DNA of 55,392 nucleotides from Candidatus Aenigmatarchaeota archaeon (GCA_039091855.1 JAWCLA010000002.1:1-55392), one strand, 5' to 3'; shown: positions 4,477 through 53,364, counted from the stretch's first letter. Numbers and translations are program-made. The notes: generated from the letters alone by a model not told the origin.

Positions 4477-4612
4477 GCCTCAGTAGCTCAGCAGGTTCCA
4501 GAGCGGCGTCTTATAGAGAGTGACAAGGCGCCTTTTGGTTGTAGAGAGCACTCGGCTGTTAGCTTTAATGGCTGATACCGAGTGGTCGAAGGTTCGAGTC
4601 CTTCCTGAGGCG
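4477..4612 (+). tRNA. tRNA-Asn (anticodon GTT) with two introns
   Basis: Hand-built cloverleaf. Acceptor GCCTCAG (4477-4483) pairs with CTGAGGC (4605-4611); discriminator G4612. D arm GCTC...GAGC. Anticodon stem CTCGG (4551-4555) / CCGAG (4578-4582). Loop is CTGTTA plus A4577, with GTT at 4558-4560. A 15-nt intron (4562-4576) sits at the canonical 37/38 site. Variable region TGGTC. T arm GAAGG TTCGAGT CCTTC (4588-4604). A further ~45 nt (about 4505-4549) interrupts the D-arm/position-26 region. Its exact boundaries are ambiguous because a GGTT..AGAGC segment is duplicated. The mature length comes to 76 nt. Confidence 0.75.
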
Positions 4613-4858
4613 TTTTTATAGCTTGTGTAGAAATCAAAGATAAATGTAAATAGCCGGATTCACACATAAGGTGGAAAAGAATGAAGACTTTGGCCAACAT
4701 AACCAAGTCGTTCTTCCAGAAACTTTTGACGACATTAACTAATATCATAAGTAGTATTCCTGGACTATCACAAGCGAAGGTTAAGTGAAAGATGCGAAAT
4801 ATGTTCTCCATCAAGTTGCAAAGTTATTGATGGGGTAAACTTTCAAAAGGCGAAGTTT

Positions 4859-5131
4859 ATGGATGCCAGAATGGAGCTTATATCAAACTGCTTTGACATA
4901 AGGGGTTTCAACAAGAAATGTAACTTTCATAACTGTATGAAAGTGCCTGAAAAGGAGGCTCTTATAATGGAGCTTGATTCGAAGAAGCAGCAGAGAAAGG
5001 AGCTTGTTTCGCTTTATTTTTGCAACAAGCATTTTGACATCTGCATAAAGGATTTATTAAACCAGCTTAACAAACTATGTGAAAGTGGAAAGAGTGTATA
5101 TATGGAAATGTATGAAATTGGTTCAAGATGA
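4859..5131 (+). CDS. Small Cys/His-rich hypothetical protein (90 aa), possible zinc-binding
   Basis: ORF lying between the two intron-bearing tRNA genes; it stops 9 nt before tRNA-Phe. Cys/His spacing: C11, C21, H24, C26, then C55, H58, C62, C74. I recognise no family. Confidence 0.4.
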   Translation: MDARMELISNCFDIRGFNKKCNFHNCMKVPEKEALIMELDSKKQQRKELVSLYFCNKHFDICIKDLLNQLNKLCESGKSVYMEMYEIGSR

Positions 5132-5140
5132 TGTTAGGTT

Positions 5141-5285
5141 GGGGTGATAGCTCAGTCCGGGAGAGCACATGGCTGAAGTTTAACTGTGGTATTTGATTTC
5201 AAAACCGCTTTACAGAAGTTACCATGGTGTCGTGGGTTCAAAATAAGCCATATTTGAAGTTTATATGAAAATCCCACTCACCCCA
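5141..5285 (+). tRNA. tRNA-Phe (anticodon GAA) with two introns (anticodon loop 37/38 and T-loop)
   Basis: Acceptor GGGGTGA (5141-5147) pairs with TCACCCC (5278-5284); discriminator A5285. D arm GCTC AGTCCGGGA GAGC. Anticodon stem CATGG (5168-5172) / CCATG (5222-5226). Loop CTGAAG (GAA at 5175-5177) plus A5221, split by a 42-nt intron (5179-5220). Variable region GTGTC. T stem GTGGG (5232-5236) / CCCAC (5273-5277) encloses 36 nt instead of 7. Read as TTCAAA...T, this implies a ~29-nt intron in the T-loop. The exon segment TTCAAA can pair with intron segment TTTGAA. Confidence 0.8.
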
Positions 5286-5286
5286 T

Positions 5287-5883
5287 ATGAAAAAGGCTTC
5301 AAAGGAAAATGAAAGGGGAACCAAGAAGACTGGAAAGGTTTTGGAATGCAGGCTCCTGGAAAACAAGCTTGTGATAGCAAAGGGGTTTGAAGAACTGATG
5401 CAAAAATCTTACGGAAAATACATAGGCGATGAAAATGACATTAGTAAAGGCAGGCTTGAGATTTCTTTTGTGGAGGCGCTTTATCTATTAGAAAAAGGAA
5501 AGATTAATATAAAGAAGGGTACAAAAAAGCTAAGTTTTAAGGAACTTATGGAATTTGGCATTCAGAGAGATAAAAGACTTCATGAGAAGTATATGGTATA
5601 CAGGGACATAAGGGAAAGGGGTCTTGTTGCTAAAACAGGGTTCAAGTTCGGCTGTGATTTCAGGGTTTACCAGAGGGGCGTAGGTGTAAAGAAGGGCCCT
5701 AAAACAGCATCAGAGCACACAAAATGGATTGTTTATACCGTTCCTGAGGATTATACGTGCTCATTTGCAGAGCTTTCAAGGGCTGTCAGGCTTGCTCATT
5801 CAATAAGGGCAAGGATGCTTTGGGCGATAGTTGACAATGAGGATAATGTCACATATTTCGAGGTTGTAAGGATAAAGCCGTAA
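5287..5883 (+). CDS. endA: tRNA-splicing (tRNA-intron) endonuclease EndA, homotetramer-like size class
   Basis: The C-terminal half aligns colinearly with my recollection of M. jannaschii EndA. Matching segments: VEALYLLEKG, LSFKEL, KYMVYRDIRERG, KTGFKFGCDFRVYQRG, EHTKWIV, VRLAHSIRARMLWAIVD, ending ...IKP. The ATG begins 2 nt after the tRNA-Phe discriminator base. Confidence 0.9.
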   Translation: MKKASKENERGTKKTGKVLECRLLENKLVIAKGFEELMQKSYGKYIGDENDISKGRLEISFVEALYLLEKGKINIKKGTKKLSFKELMEFGIQRDKRLHEKYMVYRDIRERGLVAKTGFKFGCDFRVYQRGVGVKKGPKTASEHTKWIVYTVPEDYTCSFAELSRAVRLAHSIRARMLWAIVDNEDNVTYFEVVRIKP

Positions 5884-14014: not shown

Positions 14015-15031
14015 TCATGTGATTTTTGGCGGCTTGATTTTTACCTCTATCTCTTTCCTGAACTCATAAATGTATTCTATGCTTGTAGTTACGAAATATG
14101 TGGCAATTTTTTCTATTTTGTTTTGGTATGGAGTTTCTATTGTGAAATGCTGTTTTGGCGATTCCTTTCCAATTAATTGGAACGCATCCATTTTATTTAT
14201 TGCACTTGAGATATAGGTTCCTATTTTATAGTCTGCTTTTTGCGTGCCCACATTAGTTATTATTTTTATTGATGAAGCTGAGATTTCCGGTGTTGTTGTA
14301 TCTTCTAAAGATCCTACAAGAAATCCGCTGCCCTTGTTCTTTATCTGGAAGGCCATTATTGTGTTTGATGGTTGTCCATTCTTAACTGGTATTGGTTGCT
14401 GGTCTTCAACAGTTAGATATGGTTTTATTGGCCCATAGCCTTCTGTTATGTAGGATGTTATTGGCTTGAATTTTCCTTCATCAAGCATTCTTTGGTATTC
14501 TACATAGTCAACAAAACTTATGCTTGTTATGCTCTTTGTTCTGTATGGATATTGCACGTAAACTTTCAGTTTGCAAGACGTTTCAAGTGGTATTTGTTTG
14601 CTATCATAAGCTGTAAGCGTCCAAAAAACAGGTATTTTCTGTTTAGGAAGTATTCCTGTTATTGAACATTCTATTCCTGTTTTTTCGCTTTGTTGCGGGC
14701 CCGGGCATAATACTTTTATTTCTTTGAAAAGACCTTCACATGTGTCATAAAGTTTGATTTTAACAGGTATTTCAATCTCTTTTTGTGGGACAGTCTCTCC
14801 TCCTCTGTTCTCAATCCAGGCAGAAAGGCGGAACTGCTGTCCTGTTGAGACAGTTGAGGGGATTGCGTCAAGATTGCTTATAACAAGAACGTCGTTTTCG
14901 TACTCTATTGTTTGCTGGCAGGTAAGCCCTGGTATGCAGAAATTTTCAAAACCGGGTATTGTGCAGCCTGATGCAAAAATAACTAATATCAGGGTTGCTG
15001 GTATCAGAAGAATATGTGCGTTTTTCATCAA
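14015..15031 (-). CDS. Secreted lipobox (SGC) surface protein, paralog 3 of 3 (more divergent)
   Basis: Signal peptide ending IFASGC. Same architecture as paralogs 1 and 2: VSTGQQFRLSAWIENRGGETV, KLKVYVQYPYRTKSITSISF, AFQIKNKGSGFL. Confidence 0.7.
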   Translation of the reverse strand: MMKNAHILLIPATLILVIFASGCTIPGFENFCIPGLTCQQTIEYENDVLVISNLDAIPSTVSTGQQFRLSAWIENRGGETVPQKEIEIPVKIKLYDTCEGLFKEIKVLCPGPQQSEKTGIECSITGILPKQKIPVFWTLTAYDSKQIPLETSCKLKVYVQYPYRTKSITSISFVDYVEYQRMLDEGKFKPITSYITEGYGPIKPYLTVEDQQPIPVKNGQPSNTIMAFQIKNKGSGFLVGSLEDTTTPEISASSIKIITNVGTQKADYKIGTYISSAINKMDAFQLIGKESPKQHFTIETPYQNKIEKIATYFVTTSIEYIYEFRKEIEVKIKPPKIT

Positions 15032-15098
15032 ATAATATTATGCGTTCAAACTATTTATTACTATGAACGGTTTAAACTCGTTTTGTTTTGATTGCCAT

Positions 15099-15320
15099 AA
15101 GGCGAAGGCTAATTGGAAGGCGCGAAGCGCCTTCTCCGTCAAGTCGCAAGGGTTGAATTGTGGCAAGGCGAAGGCTAATGGAAGCTGGCGGAGCCAGCTT
15201 CTCCGTCAAGTCGCAAGGTTAGACAAAAATAATGTGAATTGTAATAAGGCGAAGGCTAATTGGAAGGCGCGAAGCGCCTTCTCCGTCAAGTCGCAGGGGT
15301 TGAATTGTGGCAAGGCGAAG
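15099..15320 (+). repeat. Tandem repeat of about 3.3 copies (units of 66, 81 and 66 nt plus a 9-nt partial unit), each with a GC hairpin closed by a GNA triloop
   Basis: Copy A is 15099-15164. Copy C (15246-15311) matches it except for one substitution (15149 A versus 15296 G). Copy B (15165-15245) shares the flanks but has a different inner stem. The partial fourth copy AAGGCGAAG (15312-15320) runs into the pilin signal peptide. Hairpins: GAAGGCGC-GAA-GCGCCTTC (15116-15134 and 15263-15281), and GAAGCTGGC-GGA-GCCAGCTTC (15181-15201). Confidence 0.9.
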
Positions 15321-15812
15321 CTTAAGGGCCAGCTCGTTTTTGAGTTTATTGTTGCTGTGATTGTTTTTTTAGGGATAATGTTTTACATACTGAACTATGT
15401 TAATGCAACATTTAATGGTTACAGGGAGGGTTTTTTCTCTGAGGATATGGAAAACAAGGCAATGCAAATAGCCGAACTGCTGTTGATAAACAGGGGAAAC
15501 TGGACTGGTTCAGGAAGTATGATAAGTCCTGGTTTGGCAGAAGACTGGCCTCTTTTGAACTCGACTAAAATCTCGTGGTTCAACACGACCTGCAATTCTG
15601 ACTATGAGGGTGTTATGAAAAATCTCGGCGTGCATCCAAGATACAGGGTAAAGATAGTTGTAAAAAATGAGAGTTCAGAACTTGCAAAGTGCACTATGGG
15701 TGAGCCCTCAGGCAGGACTACGGAGGTAAGGAGGTTTGGGGTTTCGGATAAGGGATTTATAACGGTTTCTATTTGGGTGTGGGAAAAGGCAAGATATGCA
15801 TATGAGTATTAG
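15300..15812 (+). CDS. Type IV pilin-like protein with class III (prepilin-type) signal peptide
   Basis: KAKLKGQLVFEFIVAVIVFLGIMFYIL shows a basic stretch, Gly at -1, Gln at +1 and Glu at +5, followed by a hydrophobic helix. This matches archaeal class III signal peptides. I propose the TTG at 15300 as the start (MNCGKAKLKGQ). The track's ATG at 15063 would add about 80 aa encoded by the tandem repeat. Confidence 0.6.
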   Translation: MNCGKAKLKGQLVFEFIVAVIVFLGIMFYILNYVNATFNGYREGFFSEDMENKAMQIAELLLINRGNWTGSGSMISPGLAEDWPLLNSTKISWFNTTCNSDYEGVMKNLGVHPRYRVKIVVKNESSELAKCTMGEPSGRTTEVRRFGVSDKGFITVSIWVWEKARYAYEY

Positions 15813-26827: not shown

Positions 26828-27011
26828 AGCTCATTTATATTTTTAATGAGCTCATTTTGAGAGATTTTATATTTGTGAAAGGGAATATGCCCTTTGTTTC
26901 CTGTGGAAAAGGTTTTATGATTAAAAACAAAAAATTAAATATAACAGTGTTATATTTAATTCCATAAGAAACAAGCCTTTTAAACCCCTATTTCCAATAG
27001 AAATCAAGGGG
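26828..27011. other. Putative replication origin (oriC) with ORB-type Orc1/Cdc6 boxes flanking an AT-rich stretch
   Basis: ORB-like elements: 26889-26910 (minus; reverse complement TTTTCCACAGGAAACAAAGGGC), 26960-26977 (plus, weak; TTCCATAAGAAACAAGCC), and 26991-27011 (plus; TTTCCAATAGAAATCAAGGGG, ending 3 nt before the cdc6 ATG). They flank the AT-rich run 26911-26959. An 8-bp inverted repeat, AGCTCATT (26828-26835) / AATGAGCT (26845-26852), surrounds TATATTTTT. Confidence 0.65.
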
Positions 27012-27013
27012 AT

Positions 27014-28216
27014 ATGATGGTACAGGTTTCACTTAAAGACATATTTTCAAATTATGTTTCAAGAAACCCGATATTCAAAAACAAGGACATACTTTCAATA
27101 AAATTCACTCCTGATAACATTCCACACAGGAACGAGCAGATAAATCAGTTGGCCCACATACTCGCTCCTGCACTGAGAAATGAAAAACCATCAAATGTTT
27201 TTATTTATGGTAAGACTGGTGTCGGAAAGACACTTGTCACGGAAAAGGTAATAAAGGATTTGGAAGAGGCGGCTGGGCAAACAGGAAACCTTAAAATAAT
27301 CTATCTTAACTGCAAAATGAGAAAGGTAACAGACACAGAATACAGGCTTTTAGCCCAACTTATTGAGTTTTTTGGCGAAAAGGTTCCATATACAGGCCTG
27401 CCAACAAGCGAGCTTTACAACAGGTTTTTCAAAATATTGGACTCGTCACAGAAAAACCTGATTCTTGTACTTGATGAAATAGATTTCCTTGTTGACAAGA
27501 TAGGCAGCGAATTCCTTTATAATCTGACAAGAATAAACCAGAACCTCGAAAAAACAAAAGTAAGTATTGTTGGCATATCCAACAACCTTTCTTTTATGGA
27601 AATGCTTGACCCAAGGGTTAAGTCCTCGTTATCCGAGGAAGAACTTATTTTTCCTCCCTATAATGCCACGGAACTAAAAGACATTTTAACAGAAAGGGCA
27701 AAGCTTGCTTTTTATGAAAACACCATAACACAGGCGGCAATAGCAAAGTGTGCAGCACTTGCTGCACAGGAACACGGTGACGCCAGAAAGGCAATAGATA
27801 TGTTGAGGGTCGCTGGTGAGATGGCAGAAAGGCTAGGTTCGTCACAAGTAAGGGAAGAGCACGTTGACATAGCTCAAAACAAGGTTGAAACAGACAGGCA
27901 CATAGAAACGATAAAAAGCCAGCCAAAACACTCAAAAATCGTGTTGAAGGCAATATTGGACCTTTACAAAAAGGACGCAAAAGCCGTGCAAACAGGGGAT
28001 GTTTACGATCTCTATTCAAAAATATGCCAGAAGAACAGCATAAAACCACTTACACAAAGACGGGTTTCTGACTTGATATCAGAACTTGATACGCTAGGCA
28101 TAGTGAATACATTAAACATATCAAAAGGCAGATATGGAAGGACAAGAAAGATAAACGTGAACCTTTCAGGAACTCTCATAACAAAAATAAACGACCTGCT
28201 TTCTGCAGAACTTTAA
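27014..28216 (+). CDS. cdc6: Orc1/Cdc6 replication initiator
   Basis: PHRNEQINQL, Walker A GKTGVGKT, Walker B LVLDEID, GDARKAIDMLR, and a C-terminal winged helix. Confidence 0.9.
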   Translation: MMVQVSLKDIFSNYVSRNPIFKNKDILSIKFTPDNIPHRNEQINQLAHILAPALRNEKPSNVFIYGKTGVGKTLVTEKVIKDLEEAAGQTGNLKIIYLNCKMRKVTDTEYRLLAQLIEFFGEKVPYTGLPTSELYNRFFKILDSSQKNLILVLDEIDFLVDKIGSEFLYNLTRINQNLEKTKVSIVGISNNLSFMEMLDPRVKSSLSEEELIFPPYNATELKDILTERAKLAFYENTITQAAIAKCAALAAQEHGDARKAIDMLRVAGEMAERLGSSQVREEHVDIAQNKVETDRHIETIKSQPKHSKIVLKAILDLYKKDAKAVQTGDVYDLYSKICQKNSIKPLTQRRVSDLISELDTLGIVNTLNISKGRYGRTRKINVNLSGTLITKINDLLSAEL

Positions 28217-43904: not shown

Positions 43905-44066
43905 GGGCCCGTAGCTCAGTAGGATAGAGCGGCAGCCTCCTATCAGGCCTTTTTCAAAAAAACCTGAACGGTCAAACCTTTACATTAACAAGGCAATCAG
44001 GACATACAAAAATGTCCTAAAATAGGAGGTAGCTGTAGGTCGTGGGTTCGATTCCCACCGGGCTCG
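43905..44066 (+). tRNA. tRNA-Arg (anticodon CCT) with an 88-nt intron at 37/38
   Basis: Acceptor GGGCCCG pairs with CGGGCTC (G2-U71 wobble); discriminator G44066. D arm GCTC AGTAGGATA GAGC. Anticodon stem GCAGC (43932-43936) / GCTGT (44032-44036). Loop CTCCTA (CCT at 43939-43941) plus A44031. Intron at 43943-44030. Variable region AGGTC. T arm GTGGG TTCGATT CCCAC. The intron 3' end, ATAGGAGG, can pair with the exon segment CCTCCTAT. Confidence 0.8.
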
Positions 44067-50199: not shown

Positions 50200-50243
50200 A
50201 AATTAGCTGCTTAATGTGATTAATCGCTACATATAACCTCTAT

Positions 50244-50403
50244 TGCTTAATGCTGCTTAACCTGCTTAAGCACTGCTTAAGCAGTGCTTAATCGCTATAT
50301 ATAGCCAACATTTAATTCCAAAAAACCTTAACCTGCTTAAGCACTGCTTAATCACCATACGTCGCCACTATAAAAAATAAAAAGCACAAAGAGACATCAA
50401 AAA
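50244..50403 (+). repeat. Direct repeat copy 1 (160 nt), rich in TGCTTAA heptamers, with a 26-bp perfect palindrome and a palindromic TATA-like box
   Basis: Identical to 51048-51209 except for an A-run length (6 versus 8 A). The palindrome TTAAGCACTGCTTAAGCAGTGCTTAA lies at 50266-50291. CTATATATAG lies at 50295-50304. Confidence 0.9.
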
Positions 50404-50435: not shown

Positions 50436-51014
50436 TTATGAAGCATTCAGTTTAAGTGCATGATAGCCCAAAGCAAGCCTTTTGATTGTATCAGGATCAA
50501 GCCTTATATAAGTCTTTCCACCTCTTGTTGAAGTTTCTATGGGTATATCATATACACGTTTTAAGTCAGAAATATACCCTCTCATACACGATTTTGATAA
50601 ACCGCATAAACTTGAAAGATAACCATAATCAATCCACTCACCTTTCATCTGCGAAAGACACCTTATAACTCTTATATGTCTTTCAGAAAGCAGCTCAACC
50701 TTTCTTTTCATATCCTCTGCTATTTTTCCTATTGAATGAGTTTTTTCAGGGTTTTTTATAGCTTTTTCTATTGCTTCTTGCAAAGGCGATATAATCTGAT
50801 TTACAACCATTTTTGAAACGGCGTCAGCAATTTTTTGGTTATCAAGATTTTTTAGCATCTCTTTTATTTCAGCACATTCATTTCTTATAACTGATTCCAA
50901 ATATTCAATCCTCCTTTGCCTTGAAGCCCTCAGCTTTTCTTCCTTTACAATTACATCAATGTCAGAAGAAATCTCCTCAAGAAGCCTTTCCATCTCTCTT
51001 AGTTCTTTAAGCAT
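50436..51014 (-). CDS. Coiled-coil protein with C-terminal winged-helix-like domain (hypothetical)
   Basis: 192-aa ORF. The N-terminal two thirds are heptad-like and charged. The C-terminus reads RVIRCLSQMKGEWIDYGYLSSLCGLSKSCMRGYISDLKRVYDIPIETSTRGGKTYIRL. It is the only gene between the two 160-nt direct repeats. Confidence 0.6.
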   Translation of the reverse strand: MLKELREMERLLEEISSDIDVIVKEEKLRASRQRRIEYLESVIRNECAEIKEMLKNLDNQKIADAVSKMVVNQIISPLQEAIEKAIKNPEKTHSIGKIAEDMKRKVELLSERHIRVIRCLSQMKGEWIDYGYLSSLCGLSKSCMRGYISDLKRVYDIPIETSTRGGKTYIRLDPDTIKRLALGYHALKLNAS

Positions 51015-51047
51015 AAAATAATTATAGTCATGGACATTTTTATATCC

Positions 51048-51209
51048 TGCTTAATGCTGCTTAACCTGCTTAAGCACTGCTTAAGCAGTGCTTAATCGCT
51101 ATATATAGCCAACATTTAATTCCAAAAAAAACCTTAACCTGCTTAAGCACTGCTTAATCACCATACGTCGCCACTATAAAAAATAAAAAGCACAAAGAGA
51201 CATCAAAAA
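51048..51209 (+). repeat. Direct repeat copy 2 (162 nt)
   Basis: Base-by-base comparison with 50244-50403 shows a single difference, the A-run length (8 versus 6). Confidence 0.9.
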
Positions 51210-53244: not shown

Positions 53245-53364
53245 AGCTTATAAAGGCAACACTTCTATAATGTAAATACTTTCAATCCGTGGCGATTTGA
53301 TAGGGAAGGTGTCTGCACACACCTTACAGCAAAAAGTGCCGCACTGCTTCGGCAGGAGGATAAG

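What the first reader, a model, noticed from the sequence alone, without database searches (positions are those of the whole stretch)
15099..15320. Tandem 66-81-nt repeats carrying a GC hairpin whose stem is swapped wholesale between copies, lying over the 5' end of a pilin-like gene
**Seen in the sequence**
- There are three full units and one partial unit in direct tandem.
- Copies A and C match except for one substitution (15149 A versus 15296 G).
- Copy B keeps both flanks (AAGGCGAAGGCTAAT and CTTCTCCGTCAAGTCGCAAGG). Its inner stem is CTGGC-GGA-GCCAG where A and C have GCGC-GAA-GCGC. One palindrome is therefore replaced by a different palindrome.
- Both hairpins have a G-N-A triloop closed by C-G. 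A and C contain the exact heptamer GCGAAGC.
- Copy B's hairpin is 1 nt longer, so the conserved downstream flank is read in a different frame (SVKSQG versus RQVAR). This argues for selection on nucleic-acid structure rather than on the peptide.
- Each unit also repeats the first seven codons of the pilin ORF (TTGAATTGTGGCAAGGCGAAG).

**Counter-evidence, also seen**
- The unit lengths (66 and 81 nt) are multiples of 3.
- The frame stays open from ATG 15063 through every copy. A repeat-encoded basic N-terminal extension therefore cannot be excluded.

**Established knowledge**
- d(GCGAAGC)-type GNA mini-hairpins are unusually stable.

**Inference**
- This could be a structured 5' leader or a set of small RNAs.
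- It could be a ssDNA-level recombination or replication signal.
- It could be a rapidly evolving in-frame repeat that remodels the pilin signal peptide.
Basis: partly seen in the sequence, partly recalled or inferred. Interest (0 to 1): 0.7.

Follow-up and report, generated by a model that had tools for sequence, protein, structure and literature searches.

The report
Hairpin repeat inserted in pilin leader
A young tandem array of a GC-rich hairpin element sits in frame right after the start codon of an archaeal pilin-like gene, apparently stretching its cleavable leader peptide from 3 to 89 residues, and similar hairpins occur in tRNA introns, gene ends and one coding sequence of related archaea.

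Summary
In detail: three full units (66, 81 and 66 nt) and one partial unit, identical flanks, and two different perfect GC hairpins.

The window is a Candidatus Aenigmatarchaeota MAG contig. Orthologous pilin-like genes in four more distant relatives start directly with MKG|QLVFEF and have no repeats. The divergent promoter region and the ATG at 15063 are conserved. The array is therefore a lineage-specific insertion inside the class III signal-peptide leader.

It is in frame, stop-free only in that frame, and strongly basic. A 99%-identical sister MAG carries one 66-nt unit fewer, also in frame. The best reading is translation into an 89-residue leader that the prepilin peptidase removes.

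The hairpin is not a conserved pilin regulator. It has the layout of a GAAG-core-loop-core'-CTTC hairpin family with covarying cores. In relatives this family occurs in tRNA introns, after stop codons (once with a 7-bp target duplication) and in frame inside the EndA gene. A decayed fourth unit lies at 4760-4855.

No Rfam family, splicing (BHB) motif or transposase was found. How the element spreads, and how its core is exchanged, remains open.

The parts
15029..15062 (.). Divergent intergenic promoter region with two TATA-like boxes: TAATATTAT at 15033-15041 and TATTTATTA at 15052-15060. Each lies about 26-28 nt from one of the two divergent start codons.
   Evidence: It is conserved base for base with the relatives L007, L008 and L009, including the distance to the ATG. 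The leaderless reading is an inference; no transcription start data exist.
15063..15065 (+). Ancestral ATG start codon of the pilin-like gene.
   Evidence: It aligns with the ATG of MKGQ... in the relatives.
15066..15098 (+). First 11 codons of the extended leader. They may be a degenerate duplicate of the gene's own 5' end.
   Evidence: Local alignment of CTCGTTTT-GTTTTGATTG to CTCGTTTTTGAGTTTATTG gives p of about 0.07 by shuffling, so this is only suggestive.
15099..15164 (+). Repeat unit A (66 nt). Hairpin at 15116-15134, with a G.U extension at 15115/15135.
   Evidence: Covariance model R1, built from relatives only, hits 15106-15146.
15165..15245 (+). Repeat unit B (81 nt). Hairpin at 15181-15201 with a different core (CTGGC/GCCAG). 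The net +1 nt around the hairpin (one T fewer before it, a 2-nt longer core) plus +14 nt in the tail keeps the frame.
   Evidence: R1 hits 15171-15213.
15246..15311 (+). Repeat unit C (66 nt), equal to A apart from one synonymous change. It is absent from the sister MAG L006.
15312..15323 (+). Partial fourth unit, AAGGCGAAGCTT, which forms the right junction of the insertion.
   Evidence: L006 has AAGGCGAAGTTT here. The same right end, AAGGCGAAGTTT, precedes ATG 4859.
15324..15812 (+). Conserved pilin-like protein proper: K-G|Q cleavage motif (15324-15332), a hydrophobic helix with Glu at mature position 5, and a globular part.
   Evidence: It is 51-54% identical to P0003-P0005 from this point onward. 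DUF7287 matches are below threshold.
4760..4858 (+). Fourth, diverged paralogous unit (X). The flanks are kept and the hairpin has decayed, mostly through GC-to-AT transitions. It ends 3 nt before ATG 4859 of a 90-aa gene.
   Evidence: nhmmer E = 4.6e-8. It aligns with unit A without gaps over 48 nt. It does not fold. In L011 and L012-L017 the spacer is only 21-28 nt with no hairpin; L018 has a 74-nt spacer with its own hairpin.
53294..53339 (+). Another hairpin of the same layout in the window (AAGGTGT/ACACCTT, with a mismatch at the stem base).
   Evidence: It is the fourth-best hit of model R1 in the window, at 14.8 bits.

Best explanation
**What it is.** The repeats are a recent, lineage-specific tandem amplification of a roughly 46-nt palindromic hairpin element plus about 20 nt of spacer. 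The element has the layout TTG-GAAG-core-loop-core'-CTTC-N4-TCAAGT. The array is lodged immediately after the start codon of a type IV pilin-like gene.

**How it is tolerated.** The promoter and the ATG are unchanged and the mRNA is probably leaderless. Ribosomes would therefore start at 15063 and read through the array. This would turn the ancestral 3-residue leader (MKG) into an 89-residue, strongly basic leader (67 residues in the sister strain). The leader stays cytoplasmic and is expected to be cut off at KG|Q by the prepilin peptidase. The insertion costs little as long as it stays in frame and free of stops, which it does.

**What the hairpin belongs to.** The hairpin is a property of the element, not of the pilin gene. 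Hairpins of the same layout, with different fully compensated cores, occur in related Aenigmarchaeota. They sit where insertions are tolerated: tRNA introns, spacers, just after stop codons, and in frame in the EndA gene. They decay towards AT-rich sequence once fixed.

**Shown versus inferred.**
- Shown: the insertion is lineage-specific; the frame is open; copy number differs between strains; the hairpin family exists and its cores covary.
- Inferred: translation from 15063; removal of the leader; mobility of the element and its mechanism.
For: **The array is a lineage-specific insertion**
- Orthologous syntenic genes in L007, L008, L009 and L010 begin ATG-AAR-GGN-CAR with no repeat. Nucleotide homology to the window resumes at 15324.
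- The promoter boxes and the ATG are conserved.

**The reading frame is maintained**
- Only frame +0 is stop-free. The first 87 leader residues hold 18 K+R against 2 D+E.
- Unit B's net +1 nt around the hairpin is offset by +14 nt in its tail, giving 81 nt.
- The only A/C difference is synonymous.

**Copy number varies between strains**
- The sister MAG L006 is 99.1-99.3% identical and has units A and B only. Its ORF is 227 aa, in frame.

**The candidate internal starts are poor**
- TTG 15300 in the window and the GTG at the equivalent place in L006 differ between the strains and lack a Shine-Dalgarno sequence.

**The hairpin family is real**
- There are 20 strand-counts of GAAG-anchored hairpins with stems of at least 8 bp in 116 kb, against 0.87 in dinucleotide shuffles.
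- Ten of the 13 GC-rich perfect hairpins found are GAAG...CTTC.
- The 9-bp helix is 100% paired, with 3 pairs changed on both sides.
- Model R1, built without the window, ranks the three units as its top three window hits, E = 0.05-0.09.
- The L009 element AGACCTTGGAAAGAAGGTGTCaagaGACACCTTCTAACTCAAGTGC has the same layout and spacing as the unit A core.

**There are signs of insertion events**
- A filled/empty pair at the pilin stop codon (L009 versus L007) shows a 56-nt insertion flanked by GGAAAAT / GGAAA-T.
- L012 EndA carries the hairpin in frame as 12 extra residues relative to L011. The window's EndA keeps a decayed 7-residue remnant.
Against: **Translation and processing are untested**
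- There is no transcript, ribosome or peptide evidence.
- An 89-residue class III leader is far outside the 6-26 residue range described for pilins (PMC4471445). Processing of such a leader has never been tested.

**Family membership is supported only moderately**
- The R1 scores are borderline (15-16 bits).
- The unit profile does not find the relatives' hairpins.
- The window spacer holding unit X and the L018 spacer are not significantly similar.

**Mobility lacks a mechanism**
- No transposase, HUH nuclease or integrase is present in any fetched locus.
- Only one clean target-duplication case was found.

**The core swap is unexplained**
- Identical flanks around two different cores are not explained by simple tandem duplication.

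**The rest of both genomes was not searchable**
- The exact 20-mer scans of the genome and metagenome collections gave only chance hits.
Confidence: 0.6

Rival explanations
1. The array is a cis-acting structured RNA, either a 5' leader or a set of small RNAs. The hairpins would control stability, translation or processing of the pilin transcript.
For: - The hairpins are stable and strongly non-random.
- The stem is swapped with full compensation.
- The wobble pairs in family members fall on the transcribed strand as G.U: L012 at 9903, L018 at 2545, and the basal G.U of units A and B.
- The high GC content of the stems in an AT-rich genome is typical of functional RNA stems.
Against: - The array is absent from all orthologous pilin genes.
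- It lies downstream of the conserved, probably leaderless start codon.
- The open frame and the frame-restoring indels point to constraint on coding.
- No Rfam match was found.
- The paralogous unit X has lost the hairpin.
- Whole-region folds are only modestly better than shuffles, z = -3.4 on one strand and -2.8 on the other.
Confidence: 0.12
2. The array is a contingency locus. Recombination or slippage among the units in the signal-peptide coding region would switch or tune expression of a surface pilin. The analogy is with repeat tracts in bacterial surface-protein leaders; that comparison rests on my own knowledge.
For: - The repeats lie in the 5' coding part of a surface protein.
- Copy number differs between two 99%-identical strains.
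- The 3' flank copies are spaced 67 and 80 nt apart, so crossovers there would shift the frame. Crossovers in the 5' flank (66 and 81 nt apart) would not.
Against: - Both observed alleles are in frame, and every unit length is a multiple of three.
- Only two genomes are available and there are no read-level data.
- Relatives manage without any repeat.
Confidence: 0.1
3. The units are archaeal endonuclease-spliced (bulge-helix-bulge) introns. They would be removed from the mRNA to restore the short MKGQ leader.
For: - Hairpins of the same layout sit inside tRNA introns in relatives.
- An EndA gene and tRNA genes with multiple introns lie in the window.
- Each unit can form a 4-bp helix, GCGA/UCGC, next to a 3-nt bulge.
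Against: - Two scans, in both bulge geometries, found no convincing bulge-helix-bulge motif at junctions that would restore MKGQ.
- The relaxed reading would excise 42, 43 and 42 nt. Excision from unit B shifts the frame into a TAA codon. The unspliced sequence, by contrast, is in frame.
- The EndA-gene copy in L012 also lacks such a motif.
Confidence: 0.04
4. The array is neutral junk in a gene that is dead or dying, or in one that now starts internally (TTG 15300). On this view the open frame is a coincidence.
For: - Homologues start only 2 codons before Q90.
- There is no expression evidence.
- Other family copies in this genome are decaying.
Against: - An insertion that is in frame (chance 1 in 3) and has no stop in 87 codons, when the other five frames have 1-8 stops, is unlikely by chance. 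My rough estimate is a few percent.
- The second allele is also in frame.
- The downstream ORF is intact and identical in both strains.
- The putative internal start is not conserved between the strains and has no ribosome-binding site.
Confidence: 0.1

Closest known systems
Rickettsia palindromic elements (RPEs)
   Same: They are short palindromic repeats that insert in frame into protein-coding genes and are carried as extra peptide segments. They also occur outside genes (reviewed in PMC10969869). Here the hairpin is in frame in the pilin leader and in L012 EndA.
   Different: - This is an archaeal (DPANN) case, and the element core is shorter (about 46 nt against about 150 bp).
- There is no sequence relationship to RPEs.
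- This array is tandem and lies in a cleavable leader.
- Copies also lie inside tRNA introns.
- Translation has not been shown.
REP / BIME elements and MITEs of prokaryotes
   Same: They are dispersed imperfect palindromes with a conserved stem base and variable inner stems. They are often found just after genes. Presence or absence varies between relatives, and one case here shows a 7-bp target duplication.
   Different: - There is no GTAG motif, and no RAYT or IS200/605 transposase was seen.
- The terminal inverted repeats are only about 4-5 bp.
- Copy number per genome is unknown.
- The tandem head-to-tail arrangement with identical flanks is unusual.
Transposed archaeal tRNA introns (Thermoproteales)
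   Same: Related sequences turn up at different positions in different tRNA genes, by an unknown mechanism thought to act at the DNA level (PMC4090602). Here the same hairpin layout is found in D-loop, anticodon-loop and T-loop introns.
   Different: The pilin-leader copies have no usable bulge-helix-bulge motif and appear to be translated rather than spliced.
Class III (prepilin) signal peptides
   Same: The leader ends in K-G, followed by a hydrophobic helix of about 21 residues with Glu at position 5 (PMC4471445).
   Different: The leader is 89 residues (67 in the sister strain), against the described 6-26 residues and against 3 residues in the orthologues.

Membership tests
Type IV pilin-like protein (class III signal peptide) | A hydrophilic leader ending in Gly, followed by about 21 hydrophobic residues with Glu at mature position 5. 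| tested here: met
   The motif KG|QLVFEFIVAVIVFLGIMFYIL is invariant in all five family members. The leader length is abnormal in the window.
Type IV pilin-like protein (class III signal peptide) | Pilin fold (long N-terminal helix packed on a beta-sheet) or a curated family match. | tested here: inconclusive
   - The AlphaFold model has mean pLDDT 57, with helix 2-32 and a C-terminal 4-strand sheet.
- Foldseek found nothing with E below 0.09.
- DUF7287 scores 15-18 bits against a cutoff of 27.
Type IV pilin-like protein (class III signal peptide) | A cognate prepilin peptidase and assembly ATPase in the genome. | not tested
   Only part of the window's ORFs were scanned. The rest of the genome was not available.
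Bulge-helix-bulge (endonuclease-spliced) intron | Two 3-nt bulges flanking a 4-bp helix at the two junctions, with excision that restores a functional product. | tested here: not met
   Scans in both geometries found nothing convincing. The relaxed reading removes 42, 43 and 42 nt and creates a frameshift into TAA.
REP elements mobilised by RAYT | A conserved GTAG 5' of the palindrome, and a RAYT (IS200/605-like TnpA) gene. | tested here: not met
   The 5' flank is TTG/ATT-GAAG, not GTAG. No such gene was seen in the window ORFs scanned against Pfam or in the precomputed Pfam labels of the relatives' loci. Genome-wide absence cannot be tested here.
MITE | Terminal inverted repeats, target-site duplication, several dispersed copies, and a parent insertion sequence. 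| tested here: inconclusive
   - Dispersed copies: yes.
- Target-site duplication: one case, GGAAAAT / GGAAA-T.
- Terminal repeats: only about 4-5 bp.
- Parent element: none found.
Rickettsia palindromic elements | A palindromic repeat inserted in frame in coding sequences and translated. | tested here: inconclusive
   The in-frame condition is met twice, in the pilin leader and in L012 EndA. Translation cannot be tested here. This is an analogy in behaviour, not homology.
Any described RNA family (Rfam 15) | A covariance-model match at or near the gathering score. | tested here: not met
   Nothing matched at gathering score. At E up to 10, nothing overlapped the repeats.
Phase-variable contingency repeat | Changes in copy number switch the reading frame on and off. 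| tested here: not met
   The units are 66, 81 and 66 nt, and both alleles are in frame. The 67- and 80-nt spacing of the 3' flanks would allow frameshifts, but none was observed.

The most novel reading that the evidence does not exclude
Aenigmarchaeota may carry a previously undescribed mobile hairpin element with a GAAG...CTTC stem base and an exchangeable core. It would insert with short target duplications and survive wherever the cell can neutralise it. Inside tRNA genes it would become, or extend, non-canonical introns. After stop codons it would be harmless. In proteins it would survive as in-frame loops or as a cleavable leader extension. If so, it would be a concrete DNA-level source of archaeal tRNA intron gain and of peptide insertions. 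One such insertion lies in the splicing endonuclease itself, near the position of the crenarchaeal specificity loop.
Probability: 0.3. Interest if true: 0.75.

Novelty: new variant of a known kind. Interest (0 to 1): 0.55.

Why it matters
**For pilin biology.** If the leader is translated, this would be by far the longest class III signal-peptide leader known. It would be a natural test of how much cargo a prepilin peptidase tolerates.

**For genome evolution.**
- The element family links three things that are usually treated separately: palindromic repeats, in-frame peptide insertions, and the content of non-canonical tRNA introns.
- It does so in a DPANN lineage where the origin of such introns is an open question.

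**For annotation.** It explains why the gene is annotated with an 87-residue N-terminal extension that has no homologue in any database searched.

Tried and rejected
**Searches that found nothing useful**
- Rfam at gathering score and at a permissive threshold: no family.
- ARAGORN: no tRNA in the window. It missed the tRNA genes that contain introns.
- Exact 20-mer scans of genome, metagenome and viral collections: only chance single hits in bacteria. A gapped two-anchor pattern in viral contigs gave no hit.
- Exact look-up of two window proteins: not on record.
- The 35-aa ORF at 4681-4788 searched against 1.8 billion representatives: only weak matches, best E 3.6e-5, which I judged uninformative.
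- HUH nuclease, transposase or integrase near the loci: none among 25 window ORFs scanned.

**Hypotheses rejected or left unsupported**
- Bulge-helix-bulge intron: my first scan used the wrong (mirror) geometry. I redid it after checking the geometry on the L012 tRNA-Asn intron. Neither scan gave a usable motif.
- Derivation of the unit from the neighbouring tRNA-Asn, tRNA-Phe or the third tRNA: alignments were no better than shuffles, with 14-98% of shuffles scoring as well.
- Sequence orthology of unit X with the L018 spacer: not significant.
- A duplicated gene 5' end at 15066-15098: p of about 0.07.
- Derivation of the unit's 5' part from the start region of the 90-aa gene: B5 matched in 4 of 5000 shuffles and A5 in 19 of 5000. 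This is suggestive, but it is confounded by the shared AAGGCGAAG.

**Inconclusive**
- Pilin fold: the model has low confidence and the fold search returned only weak, unrelated (ribosomal-protein) matches.

Full report
**1. The observation**

The sequence at 15099-15320 is as described.
- Units A (15099-15164) and C (15246-15311) are 66 nt and differ at one base. Unit B (15165-15245) is 81 nt. A partial fourth unit, AAGGCGAAGCTT, runs into the gene.
- The repeat finder recovers the 91-nt A/C pair and three copies of the 3' flank, spaced 67 and 80 nt apart.
- The 21-nt flank occurs three times, against none in 100 shuffles.
- The hairpins are GAAGGCGC-gaa-GCGCCTTC (A and C) and GAAGCTGGC-gga-GCCAGCTTC (B). 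They are perfect, stable as DNA or RNA, and far better than shuffles.
- The 5' flank (15 nt) and the 3' flank (21 nt) of A and B are identical. The centre differs by three pairs changed on both sides plus one extra pair.
- Only the frame that starts at ATG 15063 is stop-free over 15063-15329. The other five frames have 1-8 stops.

**2. Organism and gene**

The 249-aa ORF is identical to a hypothetical protein of a Candidatus Aenigmatarchaeota MAG whose contig length equals the window. The surroundings are ordinary archaeal chromosome:
- EndA, TFS, a signal peptidase, Cdc6, ribosomal protein L10 and Spt5;
- tRNA genes that contain introns.

Four more distant homologues (about 51% identity, same synteny) are 164-172 aa. 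The shortest begins MKGQLVFEFIVAV. K-G|Q followed by a hydrophobic stretch with Glu at position 5 is the class III signal-peptide motif (PMC4471445). Family and fold evidence beyond that motif is weak.

**3. The array is an insertion into the leader**

In the relatives the two divergent genes are separated by 35 nt that carry two TATA-like boxes, each about 26-28 nt from its start codon. The pilin gene begins ATG-AAR-GGN-CAR.

The window has the same boxes and the same ATG at the same distance. After ATG-AA the sequence departs, and homology resumes only at 15324 (AAG GGC CAG). So 258 nt (86 codons) have been added between Met1 and Lys-Gly-Gln.

With the box at about -26 and no Shine-Dalgarno sequence, the mRNA is most simply leaderless. 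I infer that translation starts at 15063 and runs through the array.

**4. Evidence that the frame matters**
- The whole insertion is a multiple of three and is stop-free in one frame only.
- Unit B differs from A by -1, +2 and +14 nt, which sum to +15.
- The single A/C difference is synonymous.
- The first 87 residues encoded before the K-G cleavage motif hold 18 K+R against 2 D+E. That suits the cytoplasmic N-region of a signal peptide.
- A sister MAG contig (L006, 99.1-99.3% identical over 14.7 kb) carries A and B but not C, giving a 227-aa ORF. This is consistent with a 66-nt deletion or duplication across the AAGGCGAAG repeats, plus one C/T change next to it.
- The candidate internal starts differ between the two strains and have no ribosome-binding site.

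**5. A fourth unit elsewhere in the window**

A profile of the units finds 4760-4855 (E = 4.6e-8).
- It aligns with unit A without gaps over 48 nt.
- Its central palindrome has been eroded, mostly by GC-to-AT transitions, and it no longer folds.
- It lies in a 245-nt spacer between tRNA-Asn and a conserved 90-aa gene. In L011 and L012-L017 that spacer is only 21-28 nt with no hairpin.
- It ends AAGGCGAAGTTT|ATG. The pilin junction in L006 reads AAGGCGAAGTTT|AAG.

**6. A hairpin family in relatives**

The closest relative at that second locus (L018) has a 74-nt spacer there. It contains GGAAGGTGTC-atcg-GACACCTTC.

A scan of all fetched loci for GAAG-anchored perfect hairpins found the following members:

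| Locus and position | Context |
|---|---|
| L007 4870 | 3' of the neighbouring secreted-protein gene |
| L009 1762 | directly after the pilin stop codon |
| L009, about 84-150 | two tandem copies with the same flank, CTTCTTTCCA, and different cores |
| L012 9903 | tRNA-Asn intron at position 37/38 |
| L012 10321 | upstream of tRNA-Phe, nested inside an outer inverted repeat |
| L012 10509 | tRNA-Phe T-loop intron |
| L012 10672 | inside the EndA coding sequence |
| L012 11139 | after the EndA stop codon |
| L018 2449 and 2545 | tRNA-Asn introns |
| L011 9862 and 10320 | tRNA-Asn D-loop intron, and upstream of tRNA-Phe |

Statistics:
- There are 20 strand-counts against 0.87 in dinucleotide shuffles.
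- Ten of the 13 GC-rich perfect hairpins found in 116 kb have this GAAG...CTTC base.
- On eight relatives' copies the 9-bp helix is 100% paired, and three pairs are changed on both sides.
- A covariance model built from those eight, without the window, ranks the three pilin units first in a full scan of the window (E = 0.05-0.09) and 53294-53339 fourth. These scores are borderline.

The layout also matches: TTGG, then the stem, then CCTTC, then 4 nt, then TCAAGT. I therefore rate family membership as likely, not proven.

**7. Signs of insertion, tolerance and decay**
- L009 against L007 at the pilin stop codon is a clean filled/empty pair. It shows 56 extra nt flanked by GGAAAAT / GGAAA-T.
- In L012 the hairpin adds 12 in-frame residues to EndA relative to L011. 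The window's EndA keeps a decayed 7-residue remnant at the same place.
- Presence or absence differs between relatives at nearly every site.
- This pattern resembles REP or MITE elements. For the coding copies it resembles Rickettsia palindromic elements (PMC10969869).

**8. Alternatives tested**
- Splicing: no bulge-helix-bulge motif restores MKGQ. The relaxed helix-bulge reading removes 42, 43 and 42 nt and runs into TAA after unit B. The unspliced RNA is in frame.
- Known RNA families: none.
- Origin from a tRNA: not supported.
- Phase variation: possible in principle, because the 3' flanks are 67 and 80 nt apart. The two known alleles are both in frame.

**9. What remains open**
- How the element moves. 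No nuclease gene was seen in any fetched locus.
- Why A and B have identical flanks but cores of two sub-types that resemble different relatives' copies.
- Whether an 89-residue leader is really made and removed.

The rest of both genomes could therefore not be examined.

Noticed in passing
window 4477-4612 and 5141-5285: Two tRNA genes, each read by eye as having two introns. One is tRNA-Asn(GTT), with a D-loop intron and a 37/38 intron. The other is tRNA-Phe(GAA), with a 37/38 intron and a T-loop intron. ARAGORN found neither. Rfam scored only part of the first, below the gathering score (20.8 bits).
   Followed up: partly
window 4614-4858: In the window, a 245-nt spacer separates tRNA-Asn from the 90-aa Cys-rich gene. 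In L011 and L012-L017 the spacer is only 21-28 nt with no hairpin; L018 has 74 nt with its own hairpin. A Shine-Dalgarno-like AAGGTGG plus ATG, resembling the ribosome-binding region of L011, now heads a 35-aa ORF (4681-4788) that stops inside repeat unit X. The real gene starts at 4859, in another frame.
   Followed up: partly
window 5287-5883 (EndA), residues about 45-53; L012 10662-10705: The splicing endonuclease gene carries an in-frame insertion derived from the hairpin. It is intact in L012-L017 (12 extra residues, ELDGRRQESPSLKG), decayed in the window (IGDENDIS) and absent in L011. From the alignment offsets to the A. pernix alpha subunit, it maps close to where the crenarchaeal specificity loop (K44) lies. 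The enzyme also has the GVKKGPKTAS loop seen in the Nanoarchaeum enzyme.
   Followed up: partly
window 50240-50380 and 51046-51190: A direct duplication of about 140 nt flanks a 192-aa ORF (50436-51014, minus strand, no Pfam match). Each copy is packed with the palindromic motif CTGCTTAAGCAG. This could be an array of binding sites or the ends of an inserted segment.
   Followed up: no
window 26933-26961: A perfect 13-bp AT-rich palindrome, AATTAAATATAAC-agt-GTTATATTTAATT, lies in the spacer just upstream of the Cdc6/Orc1 gene (27014-28216). It is a candidate feature of a replication origin.
   Followed up: no
L012 10303-10370: One hairpin (GAAGGCGAC/GTCGCCTTC) sits inside the loop of an outer inverted repeat, GAAGGCGT...ACGCCTTC. 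It looks like one element nested within another.
   Followed up: no
L009 80-150: Two adjacent hairpin units share the 3' flank CTTCTTTCCA but have different cores. One core is decayed. This is the same pattern of conserved flanks with a swapped core as in the pilin array, seen in another genome at another locus.
   Followed up: partly
window 43905-44066: A third tRNA gene with a long intron. It is the only Rfam hit at gathering score (52.5 bits), and ARAGORN did not call it.
   Followed up: no
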